A stretch of DNA of 63,321 nt, counting the filler, from Globobulimina sp. (taxonomy: Eukaryota): the NCBI GenBank assembly GCA_003354225.1. It is 21 parts of 21 records of this genome, joined end to end, with 100 filler letters (N's around TTAATTAATTAA, not from the genome) between each part and the next. Parts side by side here need not be neighbours in the genome. Positions count along the whole stretch, not along the records: positions 60,404 to 63,321 come from PIVH01004374.1; 20 more parts are not named here. One strand, written 5' to 3'. A program made the translations under genes and the position numbers. The notes under the pieces are model-generated. The model was not told where the DNA came from and searched no databases. It worked only from the letters and a program-made list of their open reading frames with translations. Shown here piece by piece: positions 9,589-63,321 of this stretch (the first letter of the stretch is position 1; each line of letters starts with the position of its first letter).

Positions 9589-10014
9589 TTAAAAATAACT
9601 TCTACAGTTGGCTCCTATACTTGATATTGCATAGTTTGGTTCACTGCTACAGTCTAAACCAACATAATTATCATTTGAAGCCATACCAAAATACATTTCT
9701 GTTGCAACATTAATATCCAATGTCCATTTATGTATTGATTTCCATGTCGAAGAAATCCATAGTTTTCCGTATATTGTATGCCTGGCAAATGTACAATATT
9801 TTATATTGGTGACTGTCAATTTATCGTCTGATATTTTGAAACAATCAGGTCGTGCATTATTGAAAAATTCAGCCATATAGTAATACATTAGACATATTTG
9901 TCTGATTTCTTTTGGGAGATTTGTTGATTTGAATAGACATTCCAATGATTTTATATATCCAAACACTAAATCTATTGTTCGTTGATCACATGTTTGAAGA
10001 ACATGCGCTGACAT
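9589..10014 (-). CDS. Hypothetical protein: N-terminal header motif plus SPRY/B30.2-like beta region
   Basis: DQRTIDLVFGYIK...LPKEIRQICLMYYY, then FKISDDKLTVTN, HKWTLDI, MYFGM. Confidence 0.5.
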   Translation of the reverse strand: MSAHVLQTCDQRTIDLVFGYIKSLECLFKSTNLPKEIRQICLMYYYMAEFFNNARPDCFKISDDKLTVTNIKYCTFARHTIYGKLWISSTWKSIHKWTLDINVATEMYFGMASNDNYVGLDCSSEPNYAISSIGANCRSYF

Positions 10015-59087: not shown

Positions 59088-60045
59088 TTAATGATAAGTA
59101 ATTTTATCTTTTTGCAGATGACCACAATCTCCAATTGCTGTCACAGACACTCTTCCCTCTGCATTAATTTTCAATTTTGTGATGGAACAATTATACAAAG
59201 CGAACCTCAACCACGCTTCCTCCGGAAATTGCAATGCTTTGCAGACAAAATATCTGAAACAATTCCCATGTCCTACAATCAGTATATTCTCATCCTTCTC
59301 GTTTACGTTTCTATGGAAATATGTGTCAAATGCTTGACGCATTCTTTTTGAATCAACATCCAAATCATCATAAAAACCTGAATCGCGAAGATCATTTCTA
59401 ACGGGAACACATATTGCTGGACAGCCTTCATTCAAATTCCCGTCAGATACTACATTATTTTTATGCTTTTGTCCCAGTTCATTTGCAATGATATCACATG
59501 TCTGCTGTGCTCGGATCATTTTTGAACAAATTATTTCATCATATTCAACGCCCAGACATTTCAAACGTTTTCCGGTTATCTTTGCTTGCTCTTTGCCTAA
59601 ATCTGTGAGTTTTTTATCAGGCGCTAAATCCGCATGAATGTACTGTCCATGGCGCACTGCATACAATGAATGCATAAAAAACAAATGTAATCAATATCGA
59701 TATCGGAATTTGAATGCAAAACAATAACGTAAACACGGACCGACCTAAAGTTACAGTGCGTGTTGAATTATTTGCAGAACGTGTTGTATGTCCATCCCAC
59801 GAATAATTCCATGCCGGGCATTGATATGGTTCATTGCTGGCAATTGATGCAGAGGCTGTTACTATTTTTTGTCTGTTTTGAAATGCATAAATTGCACTAA
59901 ATGTGCAAATGGATAATGATACTGCTGCAGCAGAGAAAAATGAAGATTTGTAGTGAATTTTGGAGCTAATGGAAGCATTTCGAGTGCTAATACGTGGTGT
60001 TAACGATTCTGATCTTCTAACACAAAACCTTAGACTTGAGAACAT
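59088..60045 (-). CDS. PGAM5: Mitochondrial Ser/Thr phosphatase PGAM5 (intron 59657-59744)
   Basis: WNYSWD motif, spliced TL|VRHGQY, LNEG, VGHGNCFRYFVCKALQFPEEAWLR, GDCGH. Confidence 0.93.
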
Positions 60046-60403: not shown

Positions 60404-60666
60404 TGACATAAACTGCAATTAATATTAAGATGAACGACATTAAATGCTTTAATTTTAGTATTAAGACATTCAGCACAGTTTATTATGCAGGAATAGCCAG
60501 CTCTGCATCTTATTGTTCTGCTTCGACAATTCGTGCAATCAATTTGACAGTCATCGTCTGCATAACAGGTAATATTGTTACTCCATTGTTGTGAATCCAT
60601 TATTGTTAAGGATTTAGTCACATGAATGATGATGAAGAGTGTGAATGTTATTAGCAACGCTGACAT
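60404..60666 (-). CDS. Secreted Cys-rich surface protein, N-terminus
   Basis: Signal peptide, then ITC...CQIDC..C...IRC...CIINC repeats. Confidence 0.65.
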
Positions 60667-61038
60667 GTTGTCGGATATGATTTTTCAGGGCTGGTAATAA
60701 ATTGTACAAGTATTAATATTAATAACTCGAGATCGCGAAAAGTACATTATTCAAAAGTTAATAATCAATCAGGTGCATATGACGAAAATGTGTGATTTTG
60801 TGCGTAACTTTTATTTTATTAAAAATAAAAAAAATTCGTTTTAGGAATTTCGTTAGAGTTTCGGTGAAGGAGTTATAAGTCAGCCCTGAAAAATCATATC
60901 AGACAACATGTCAGCGTAGCTAATAACATTCACACTCTTCATCATCATTCATGTGACTAAATCCTTAACAATAATGGATTCACAACAATGGAGTAACAAT
61001 ATTACATGTTATGCAGACGATGACTGTCAAATCGATTG
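60536..61038. repeat. 158-bp inverted duplication (60536-60693 / 60881-61038)
   Basis: Reverse-complement copies with about 4 substitutions, including TTG>TAG; 187-bp spacer. Confidence 0.9.
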
Positions 61039-61634
61039 ATGACGATGCGTTTGGTGACATTTTAGAAGACGCCATCACAGAACAAACTGGACAGGATATT
61101 GAGGTTGATGTTGATGTAGAAATACATCAAGAAATAACTGTTTCGGCCAATGGAAACTCGCCATTTTTAGGGTTGGCCGAAGGTGTACAATATTTATTGG
61201 TTGCTGGCTTATTATTTATCATAATTTTATTAATTTGTTCGGTTACACTTTGCTGCATTTTGAGATGGAAAAATAAGAATGTCTCAGTTGATCAAAACAC
61301 AGTGAAGGCCCAACATAAAAGTGTGCCGACTGCGTCTCCGGTGGTTGATGATGGTGAAGTTGCAGGGAATACATTTAATACATTTCCGTTTATAGGCAAA
61401 TCAAATACGGATTTCGAATTAAGTGATATTGATTTACAGAAAAAGAGATCTAATAATTATAATCCCGTCATGCTCAAACAGAAAAAGGCTCAAATGTTAA
61501 ATATTGCCATACCAGCACTACCTCAGTTACCTCCGCCTATACCTCCGGTGCACGAAGCAGATGGACCAACAAATAGATTTACCGGAGATAATGCATTTGA
61601 TGATGATTTTAGTCAAAGATTTTTTAGTGTGTAG
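61039..61634 (+). CDS. C-terminal part of a single-pass membrane protein fused behind the duplicated 5' end
   Basis: TM YLLVAGLLFIIILLICSVTLCCIL plus a cytosolic tail; out of frame with the duplicated ATG. Confidence 0.5.
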
Positions 61635-61785
61635 TGTGTGCTTAATTTTATTGGTTTTAAGGATCTTTATTCTTTTAGGTGTAGACTTTGAGCTATTTCA
61701 GGATCTAGAAACAATAATTTTAAAAGTAGCATTTTAAAACCAGACATTACTATTTGTTTCAGGTTTTGAAATGCAACGCATGAAA

Positions 61786-63260
61786 CTAATATATCCATTT
61801 ATCACACATGCTCCAATGACATGATCCCAAGCTCCAACCAAAATATTTACGGAACTTTCGAGACACTTCAATTGCTGCCATCACATCATCCAACGCTTCA
61901 GCACCTTCCTCCAAACAAACTGCATCGGCTACGTCCTTTACTGCATCACTCACATATTTATCAGCGGCGATGGAAACATCTGCTTTCTTGAATGCGGATC
62001 TGTTGTCCATAGACAACCCAATAAATCCAACAATAACTCCGAGTTCCTCTTGTAACGAAGCAACAATCAACAACGAAGAATGCATTTCTTTTGGCGTTTT
62101 AAAAACGATAACATTCTCATAATCATTGAAATTCCATCCAACATTTACATGTGCATCGTGTGCATAATATCGATCCGTAGCCATGGCCAGTTCCGTTGAG
62201 TCAAAACTTATAAAATATGTTTCATTCTCTATTCCAACTCCTTCTAACATCAACTTAGCAGATCCCAAATTTTTATCTGTGATAATTACCAATTTAATTC
62301 CCAAGTCATGACATTTTAATATAGCTCGAGTGCAAAGCTCATCATCTCCAATCACCAAAACATTCATCATTCCTAATGTGTCCACAGAAACACGGCTTGC
62401 ATAAATATTATAATTGTTTCTTATTTGATGCAGCAAATAATATCTAGAAAACCAAAATAAGCCCACAGCAAAACTCGCAAATACCACAATAATCAATGTC
62501 AAAATAAACCATATTAAAAATATCACCTCATTGGTCAACGGGATAATAAACAAAAACAAAAAGAAAAAAATTAAGGTTACTAAACATAAAACAAATGACC
62601 AGCACTGTTTACATATTGTAATGGGTCGCCCATAGAATTCATCATAACTTAGTCCATATTGTGTGGGTCTATAAAGTTGAACTGTTTTGCCCATAAATGT
62701 GGAATAGCCAATGGCAAAACAAACGCATTTAGCATTTCCTTCAACCAATAAAGTACCACAAAACAATAAATTCCTGGCTTCAGCTGGTACGTCATTGGAT
62801 GGCTCTGAATTTCTTTGCTGTGGCTCAGATTCGCCGGTTAAGCCAGAATTATCCACTTGGCAATCATCGCTACATTCAAATATGCGTAAATCGGCAGGGA
62901 TCTTTTCTCCTTTTTTGATATTCACAATGTCCCCAACTACCAATTCTTTGGCATCCACAAGGTATCCATCTGTAGCATCTAATTGATTGTGCAGTCAATA
63001 TACGTTTCATTGCATTAAAAAAACAAACATACGGTGGGAATAAGCTACAATCAAATCTCTGACCTCTGATGGTGCCTTGCATTCGTTTTTCCTGATCATA
63101 GCAGCAATTAATAGTTGGTACCTTGCTTTGTCTGCCTTGCGAATCACAGTCACGCTCTGATAAATTTTGTGTAGATACTGTATCAAATATGTAAAATGAT
63201 ACTCATATAATTGTACCCGTTCGCCAGGAGCAAATTCTTCAAACCGATTTGTAATTGTTC
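61786..63260 (-). CDS. Degenerate, miniaturised P-type ATPase-like protein (intron 62979-63032; 5' end off window)
   Basis: A-domain GDIVNIKKGEKIPADLRI, VDNSGLTGESEP; P-domain remnants GIKLVIITDK and AFKKADVSIA; no DKTGT. Confidence 0.8.
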
Positions 63261-63321
63261 TGTTGCACAATGTTAATATTATCAGCAACAGTATTTCTAT
63301 AAAAGTAATTACAGTGACTAC

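What the first reader, a model, noticed from the sequence alone, without database searches (positions are those of the whole stretch)
61786..63260. Miniature pseudo-P-type ATPase: intact actuator, no phosphorylation motif, N domain and most TMs deleted
Seen: an uninterrupted spliced ORF with a Na/K-ATPase-like A domain (TGES kept) and only two TM helices. VDTLGMMNVLVIGDDELCT stands where VETLGSTSTICSDKTGT should be and runs straight into RAILKCHDLGIKLVIITDK. The TGD and GDGxND motifs are degenerate (TDK, GLSMDN), and the protein stops before TM5-10. Established: DKTGT phosphorylation and the N domain are essential for pumping. Inference: clean in-frame domain excision without stops suggests a selected non-pumping scaffold, decoy or regulator, here fused to the header motif.
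Basis: partly seen in the sequence, partly recalled or inferred. Interest (0 to 1): 0.75.

Follow-up and report, generated by a model that had tools for sequence, protein, structure and literature searches.

The report
Dead mini sodium-pump family in foraminifera
Foraminifera express a family of cut-down sodium-pump relatives that have lost the ATP-binding part, the catalytic residues and six of ten membrane helices yet keep their fold, so they probably serve as membrane scaffolds or regulators and not as pumps.

Summary
The gene is real, spliced and correctly assembled. One contig of an independent run skips both introns and spans the N-domain junction and the stop. The contig is cut, and the 5' part lies on C10070, giving 615 aa with M1-M4, A domain and P domain, no N domain and no M5-M10.

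It belongs to a clade of at least 13 sequences (3 here, 5 in Bolivina argentea, 5 from other assemblies; median identity 27%). They keep structural residues and end where M5 enters the membrane, while every catalytic motif is scrambled. The 'header' motif is an insertion inside the A domain in 7 of 10 members, not a fused header.

Against: this copy and its 96%-identical twin differ neutrally (dN/dS 0.9, 0.46-2.2).

Best reading: a non-catalytic, P2C-derived membrane scaffold or regulator; partner unknown. I found no paper on it. The scan noted a similar dead design in a bacterial P1B family, and the header box elsewhere in this genome, but not this family.

The parts
63217..63321 (-). 3' end of exon 1: end of helix M2 and A-domain linker. 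The other 426 coding bases (start codon, RYSSDDIIPAAQELRF motif, Cation_ATPase_N segment, M1, start of M2) lie on contig C10070 (L016:1432-1857)
   Evidence: 119-bp identical overlap; X1 loose end at 63320 reads into the C10070 sequence and X4 record 22 goes on 455 nt (compared)
63157..63216 (-). intron 1, 60 nt, GT..AG, in frame and stop-free
   Evidence: skipped in X4 (63156-63217, CT..AC) and, with flanking changes, in X1; absent from P0001
63033..63156 (-). exon 2: first A-domain strand plus the insertion
63034..63129 (-). ~33-aa two-helix insertion in the A domain; diverged copy of the foraminiferal 'header' box
   Evidence: helices 192-203 and 211-221 in the P0001 model; same place holds a clear header in P0244 (30.5 bits, HMM E 4e-5) and P0279; this copy alone scores weakly
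62979..63032 (-). intron 2, 54 nt, GT..AG
   Evidence: skipped in X4, X1 and X2
62674..62978 (-). actuator (A) domain core with TGES at 62838-62827
   Evidence: Pfam PF00122; pLDDT 88-98 in the ten-residue blocks 11-100; 65 of 98 residues identical to P0001
62545..62646 (-). helix M3
   Evidence: helix 110-143 of model m48b03a1e2fe8; hydropathy
62410..62529 (-). helix M4 and stalk, modelled as one unbroken helix; PEGL replaced by ASFA
   Evidence: helix 149-188; alignment
62329..62385 (-). first part of the P domain; GDDEL (62349-62335) stands for DKTGT; the N-domain deletion point follows at once
   Evidence: bridged in 4 of 4 runs
61825..62328 (-). second part of the P domain (HAD Rossmann core; TDK for TGD, GLSMDN for GDGVND) and the cytoplasmic half of helix M5
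61786..61824 (-). short tail and stop codon; the spliced contig ends 14 nt beyond the stop
   Evidence: X4 record 22 ends at 61772

Best explanation
A P2C (Na/K-ATPase-like) gene of foraminifera was duplicated, lost its N domain and everything from the membrane part of M5 on, and founded a family of four-helix, non-catalytic membrane proteins. SHOWN: architecture, splicing, family, loss of catalytic motifs, retention of fold-determining residues. FROM ESTABLISHED CHEMISTRY: without N domain, phosphorylated Asp, TGD, the P-domain Lys, GDGxND and the M4-M6 ion sites it can neither split ATP nor pump. INFERRED: it is kept as a membrane-anchored docking platform. The conserved N-terminal R[YF]SSSDVI..A.EL.F motif and the A and P surfaces bind the partners that the parent pumps bind (or the pumps themselves), so it tunes pump trafficking, phosphorylation or turnover as a decoy or auxiliary subunit. 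One subfamily, which includes this gene, added a two-helix header box on the A domain as a further docking site. This particular copy is transcribed but may be under relaxed selection after a recent duplication.
For: Same design in at least 13 sequences at median 27% identity; one clade, 100/100. The two deep subfamilies each have members in this genome and in B. argentea: 49% identity over 95% of the query, 57% over 99%. All 11 tree members with a C-terminus stop 0-16 residues past the start of membrane M5, keeping the cytoplasmic M5 helix that completes the P domain. Catalytic positions are scrambled (DKTGT: D 6/11, K 2/11, T 1/11, G 1/11, T 0/11; PEGL E 0/11; P-domain TGD G 1/11, D 2/11; GDGVND N 1/11; each 38/43 to invariant in the canonical pumps) while many structural G, D, N and R positions are 11/11 or 12/12. 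Models are confident: pLDDT 80.6, pTM 0.70 and 84.3, 0.81. The N-terminal motif is in 7 of 10 members with an N-terminus and otherwise only in two full-type pumps (L004, P0247) among 393 proteins plus three loci. All 5 sized indels in close relatives keep the frame: 6, 3, 21 nt in L002; 6, 9 nt in X1. Non-pumping scaffold roles, with the second cytosolic domain binding Src, are reported for intact animal Na/K-ATPase (PMC6152704, passages).
Against: No partner or location was identified, and no protein-level evidence exists. This copy versus L002: 31 non-synonymous and 9 synonymous changes, dN/dS 0.86-1.0, bootstrap 0.46-2.24. Random mutation gives the same non-synonymous count (mean 29.2) and leaves the frame stop-free 17% of the time. 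Of 31 differences, 10 are derived on this copy's side and 4 on L002's (17 unresolved), and they are not confined to variable sites. Long branches and biased composition could help pull the members together. The N-terminal motif is missing from 3 of 10 members and the insertion from 3 of 10, so no single docking feature is universal. The models were built with alignments full of intact pumps, which favours a pump-like fold.
Confidence: 0.58

Rival explanations
1. Membrane-anchored ubiquitin-ligase adaptor: the header box in the A domain is an F-box-like module that docks a Skp1-type protein, and the pump remnant presents substrates such as the real pumps. This is a specific version of the scaffold reading.
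For: The insertion is a helical hairpin on the A-domain surface and is a clear header in P0244. The header is a large family here: 66 matches of 66 candidates at E<=10. The genome has a canonical Skp1 (L063) and a very conserved Skp1 paralogue lacking the Pfam F-box-binding domain (L062). The likeness to F-box consensus is recalled, not from a call.
Against: No F-box, SOCS or VHL family matches any of 36 header-bearing sequences at E<=1. This gene's own insert has AAM for the GY core and a spacer of 5 against 7-15; it scores 13.7 bits only when the spacer range is widened after the fact, and -1.2 otherwise. Subfamily B has no insert.
Confidence: 0.17
2. Transcribed, slowly decaying duplicates with no function.
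For: Neutral dN/dS for the one measurable pair; very long branches; L002 lacks 7 residues of a conserved P-domain helix.
Against: Full open frames and the same end point at 22-58% identity across two named or held taxa and environmental assemblies; structural residues selectively kept; 5 of 5 sized indels in frame. Plausible for this copy or L002 alone (my estimate about 0.35), not for the family.
Confidence: 0.08
3. Passive channel or tension/voltage sensor: the M1-M4 bundle oligomerises into a leak pathway or moves the A domain against the P domain as a switch.
For: M1-M4, A and P are the moving parts of the parent pump (established knowledge) and are the parts kept; TGES is intact in this subfamily. 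The capless P domain resembles small HAD phosphatases such as 4nav_D (Z 12.5, rmsd 4.5, 152 aligned) and 4um5_A (Z 12.0, rmsd 5.3, 147 aligned); that these oligomerise is recalled.
Against: The M4 glutamate is kept in 0 of 11 and no conserved polar residue shows in M1-M4 among columns at least 75% conserved; M4 is modelled unbroken.
Confidence: 0.09
4. Half of a split transporter that pairs with a separately encoded M5-M10 chain.
For: The cut falls exactly at the M5 boundary. N-less proteins that keep M5-M10 exist (P0153, P0241, P0242).
Against: Of 7 Cation_ATPase_C matches on 6 contigs, none is shown to stand alone: one contig holds a whole PMCA gene, four pieces are cut at their 5' end, one starts in the P domain. 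The assembly is fragmentary, so absence is not proven. It still could not use ATP.
Confidence: 0.05
5. Capless HAD-type phosphatase with a new substrate.
For: HAD fold kept; first Asp kept in 6 of 11 members.
Against: This protein has Gly at that Asp; motifs II-IV are unconserved across the family.
Confidence: 0.03

Closest known systems
P2C ATPases (Na+/K+- and H+/K+-ATPase alpha subunits)
   Same: Best sequence hits (8d3y_A, 7et1_A, E 6e-31) and fold hits (8ijl_A, E 8e-26); N-terminal segment, M1-M4, A domain with TGES, P-domain fold; sits in the P2C-like clade, 99/97.
   Different: No N domain, no M5-M10, no DKTGT, PEGL, TGD or GDGxND; two-helix insertion in the A domain; 615 against about 1000 residues.
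Non-pumping (scaffold/signalling) role of intact animal Na/K-ATPase
   Same: Works-like analogy: protein interactions independent of transport, including through the second cytosolic domain (PMC6152704, passages read; PMC2542476 and PMC4638348, listing and abstract start only).
   Different: There it is a side job of a full pump; here a separate gene family has discarded the pump.
P4-ATPase-like module of alveolate/stramenopile guanylate cyclases (P4GC)
   Same: In some lineages DKTGT and the A-domain Glu are altered or lost, so ATPase activity may be gone (PMC13466520, passages).
   Different: P4 origin, N domain retained, fused to a cyclase; point decay, not domain excision.
ERMA/TMEM94
   Same: Divergent P-type-ATPase-like fold; 9jjk_A Z 12.1, rmsd 8.0, 415 aligned.
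   Different: Over 1000 residues and described as an ER Mg2+ transporter (PMC12594762, passages); the primary paper was not held.
Uncharacterised N-less P-type ATPase homologues that look bacterial (P0153, P0241, P0242; Atlas clusters of 538-744 aa from Bacillota and Cyanobacteriota)
   Same: P0153-type: N domain deleted and DKTGT decayed to DKNDL or DKNAI. The Atlas clusters lack the N-domain Pfam and are the nearest by features, 0.91-0.93.
   Different: P0153 groups with bacterial P2A-type pumps and keeps M5-M10 and PEG: an independent loss. Atlas cluster sequences could not be inspected.

Membership tests
Active P-type ATPase (P2C) | Phosphorylated DKTGT motif | tested here: not met
   GDDEL in this protein; full motif in 0 of 11 members
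Active P-type ATPase (P2C) | Nucleotide-binding (N) domain | tested here: not met
   no PF13246 match; gap between P1 and P2 blocks 3-69 residues in 9 members against 118 or more in 284 others
Active P-type ATPase (P2C) | A domain with TGES | tested here: met
   62838-62827; PF00122 E 5e-24; family-wide the Glu is kept in only 7 of 12
Active P-type ATPase (P2C) | P domain fold | tested here: met
   models and fold searches
Active P-type ATPase (P2C) | TGD, Lys and GDGxND catalytic motifs | tested here: not met
   TDK, Ser, GLSMDN
Active P-type ATPase (P2C) | Six core (ten total) membrane helices with PEGL in M4 | tested here: not met
   four helices, ASFA, stop and transcript end before M5
Active P-type ATPase (P2C) | ATP hydrolysis and ion transport | not testable with these tools
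   no assay possible
P2C lineage (descent) | Groups with Na/K-ATPase-like sequences in a tree | tested here: met
   inside the clade with annotated alpha subunits, 99/97
P2C lineage (descent) | Sister to the foraminiferal pumps L003, L004, P0247 | tested here: inconclusive
   unresolved in both free trees; constrained tree 22.9 log units better, p-AU 0.71; shared N-terminal motif with L004 and P0247
Foraminiferal header box (insertion) | Two blocks, L[VI]xGY[IL]R and P..I..[IL]..YY, with a 7-15 spacer | tested here: inconclusive
   met by the insertion at the same site in P0244 (30.5 bits, E 4e-5); only weakly by this copy (HMM E 1.9; 13.7 bits with spacer 5; hhalign P 0.005, probability 3%)
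F-box (PF00646 and kin) | Profile match | tested here: not met
   0 of 36 sequences at E<=1; none for the insert alone
F-box (PF00646 and kin) | Binds Skp1 | not tested

The most novel reading that the evidence does not exclude
Foraminifera have turned the sodium-pump chassis into a family of four-helix membrane receptors. In one subfamily the actuator domain displays the lineage's header box, which docks the foraminifer-type Skp1 paralogue, making a membrane-bound ubiquitin-ligase adaptor that recognises and removes or re-routes the true pumps it still resembles.
Probability: 0.15. Interest if true: 0.85.

Novelty: new variant of a known kind. Interest (0 to 1): 0.62.

Why it matters
P-type ATPases are usually treated as an all-or-nothing four-domain machine, and I found no described family in which the N domain and M5-M10 are cleanly cut out and the rest is kept (searches; open-access library only). 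A natural minimal M1-M4/A/P unit shows which surfaces matter apart from pumping. It gives a clean handle on the disputed non-pumping roles of Na/K-ATPase, since here they would be separated from transport by evolution. It also warns that transcript hits annotated 'Na/K-ATPase' in foraminiferal ion-transport and calcification studies may be dead paralogues: in the searches made, this genome yields three such mini genes beside three full-type P2C 5' halves.

Tried and rejected
Misassembly or a hidden intron at the N-domain junction: rejected; bridged without a joint in 4 of 4 runs.
Two-helix protein: rejected.
Run search listed no holder on record as RNA. X1 and X2 are guessed RNA and X4 is of unstated kind; their spliced contigs are what I rely on. 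A processed retrocopy is not formally excluded.
Selection from X1/X2 substitutions could not be computed: the 40 differences printed lie outside the gene, and 93 were not shown.
Header test by plain HMM on this protein: not significant. A search of the own genome with the insert found only itself. The Atlas search with the P0244 insert gave only A-domain fragments below 0.9.
Metagenome scan: 2 of 400 stretches confirmed, both short matches; the ORF printed for L050 is a HAD hydrolase-like protein, none was printed for L051.
Prokaryote genome scan with P0153: 0 of 41 stretches confirmed.
Searches of the own genome with P0244 and P0246 found no further mini genes (lower bounds).
The profile search was meant to use the C-terminal half but built 504 positions, and only the best 150 of 16,494 hits were seen, so the family count is a lower bound.
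First tree did not finish. The final tree left out 22 of 58 rows, listed; L002 was in no tree.
Complex prediction (header with the Skp1 paralogue) was not available, so binding is untested.
Earlier-findings look-ups by place and by sequence gave nothing on this gene.
Supplements of foraminiferal transcriptome papers were not read and could list these genes as ATPases.

Full report
Setting. The window is a string of unrelated contigs of about 2.9 kb joined by N linkers. The finding lies on G000:C4374 (window 60404-63321), so other window genes are not neighbours. The nearest named relatives are from the foraminifer Bolivina argentea, so I treat the organism as a foraminifer by homology.

Observation. 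Against solved structures the protein matches Na/K- and H/K-ATPase alpha chains in two pieces, A domain to M4 and the second half of the P domain, with about 260 residues of the pump missing between them. The contig ends inside a hydrophobic helix. Contig C10070 overlaps it by 119 identical bases and carries the start, the Cation_ATPase_N segment and M1-M2. With two GT-AG introns removed the gene encodes 615 aa with four membrane helices.

Assembly and expression. Four runs from three studies were laid. In X4 one 1891-nt contig covers 61772-63321 with 2 differences, skips exactly the 54-nt and 60-nt introns, and goes on 455 nt beyond the contig end, which fits 426 coding bases plus a short leader. 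X1 and X2 (one sample, about 94% identical) are spliced at the same places; X2 reaches only intron 2. All 4 runs bridge the N-domain junction without a joint. None of these runs is on record as RNA; splicing is the evidence for transcription.

Family. The homologue search returned 174 hits among 4449 candidates; of the 120 listed only P0001 (B. argentea, 601 aa, 49%) covers the query end to end. The own genome holds a 96%-identical twin (L002, 5' part missing) and a distant intronless paralogue (L006, 545 aa, about 25%) with the same deletions. L006 has its own orthologue in B. argentea, P0121 (57% over 99%). A profile search added P0243-P0246, P0279, P0327 and P0346: two from B. argentea, four from ENA or Logan assemblies, one not looked up. 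Of 393 proteins held, 296 could be measured: 12 have a P1-P2 gap under 100 residues and 284 have 118 or more. Nine of the 12 are family members; three are an unrelated type that keeps M5-M10. P0002 is a fragment that ends before M3 and is placed by tree and insertion only. The 12 members tested form one clade, 100/100, inside the P2C-like group, 99/97 (36 of 58 rows); median identity is 27%. The sister group is unresolved. A tree holding them with the full pumps L003, L004 and P0247 was 22.9 log units better than the quick free tree (p-AU 0.71), and an N-terminal motif is shared only with L004 and P0247, so origin from that lineage is likely but not shown.

What is kept and lost. In 11 members covering the P domain the DKTGT positions are kept 6, 2, 1, 1 and 0 times, the M4 Glu 0 times, the TGD Gly once and the GDGVND Asn once; these are 38/43 to invariant in the canonical set. 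Fold positions such as G83, N99, R183, G242, D248, R250, N288, G299, D570 are invariant. All 11 end 0-16 residues past the point where M5 enters the membrane. AlphaFold gives pLDDT 80.6, pTM 0.70 for P0001 and 84.3, 0.81 for this gene's third exon, with a normal A domain, a capless Rossmann P domain and an unbroken M4. Fold searches return P2C pumps first and, after the P-type ATPases, small HAD phosphatases. The alignments given to the predictor were mostly intact pumps. This pattern, fold kept and chemistry scrambled, is what a pseudoenzyme looks like (inference). That DKTGT, the N domain and six core helices define an active pump is stated in PMC13466520 (passages).

The insertion. Seven of 10 members that cover the site carry 30-40 extra residues between two A-domain strands; the three without form one subfamily, 100/99, so one insertion event suffices. 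The model shows a two-helix hairpin. A two-block matrix from 30 header boxes of this genome scores P0244's insertion 30.5 bits and P0279's 13.0, against at most 10.2 for 383 non-member proteins (P0346, 10.6, was in that background run and is a member). This gene's insertion reaches 13.7 bits, with 0 of 3000 shuffles as high, only with the spacer range lowered to 5, a choice made after seeing it; otherwise -1.2. So it is a header by position and descent, and a diverged one. No Pfam F-box matches any header.

Evidence against. The only pair with DNA in hand, this copy and L002, differs by 31 non-synonymous and 9 synonymous changes in 330 codons: dN/dS 0.86-1.0 by three methods, bootstrap 0.46-2.24, as random mutation would give. 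With P0001 as outgroup 10 changes fall on this copy, 4 on L002 and 17 are unresolved. All five sized indels in L002 and X1 keep the frame, about 0.004 by a naive one-in-three rule. My reading is recent relaxation in one or both duplicates within a family that is old and maintained; fast evolution of the whole family is also possible.

Mechanism. It cannot pump or split ATP. It keeps a membrane anchor, the A and P surfaces and, in most members, the parent pump's N-terminal motif. I put 0.58 on a non-catalytic scaffold, decoy or auxiliary subunit acting on the pumps or their partners, 0.17 on the specific ubiquitin-ligase adaptor version, 0.09 on a channel or sensor, 0.08 on functionless decay of the family, 0.05 on a split transporter and 0.03 on a phosphatase. 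No stand-alone M5-M10 gene was seen among 7 matches, though the assembly is fragmentary.

Literature. Searches found no description of this family or design in the open-access library. I read passages of PMC13466520, PMC12594762, PMC12047421 and PMC6152704, and saw only listings and abstract starts for PMC2542476 and PMC4638348. Subscription journals and supplements were not seen. With the P0153 type it suggests that loss of the N domain has happened more than once.

Verdict. Real, expressed, apparently undescribed pseudo-pump family; a new variant of a known kind; function inferred, not shown. Interest 0.62.

Noticed in passing
L062:149-706 (G000:C37101): Skp1 paralogue with Skp1_POZ but no match to the F-box-binding Pfam domain PF01466; the 120 listed relatives are 57-100% identical. 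A canonical Skp1 is in L063. Candidate partner for the header box.
   Followed up: partly
L003:100-560 (G000:C346), minus strand: The full P2C pump carries an insertion at the end of its N domain with a weak ubiquitin match (E 0.038, below cut-off). P0261 has a similar stretch by eye, and P0247 shows the start of a header box (ILVFGYVRD) at that place before it breaks off.
   Followed up: partly
proteins P0153, P0241, P0242: 684-aa P2A-like proteins from Logan assemblies with the N domain deleted and DKTGT decayed but M5-M10 and PEG kept: an independent N-less type. Atlas clusters of 538-744 aa from bacteria may be similar.
   Followed up: partly
window 60404-61038: 158-bp inverted repeat (60536-60693 and 60881-61038). 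X1 and X2 join 60404 to 61035 on opposite strands and X3 and X4 have loose ends at 61035: probably an inversion artefact in the assembly that cuts off the 5' part of the single-pass membrane protein ending at 61634.
   Followed up: partly
window 59088-59690, minus strand: Histidine phosphatase branch 1 ORF (E 9e-23), on a different contig from the finding.
   Followed up: no
window 9850-10014 (minus) and from 40226 (plus): Two genes of the window start with the header box; the first seeded the family search. Most of the 30 fetched headers precede what looks by eye like a SPRY-type domain (label recalled).
   Followed up: partly
L016:3-1391, minus strand (G000:C10070): Divergent neighbour whose start lies about 50 bp upstream of the gene's start codon: a secreted-looking protein with a weak PQQ_2 propeller match (E 0.02); a very short shared promoter region.
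   Followed up: no
L018, minus strand (G000:C346): 813-aa ORF upstream of the L003 pump that looks by eye like a lipocalin-type domain fused to a polyprenyl synthase (labels recalled, not tested).
   Followed up: no
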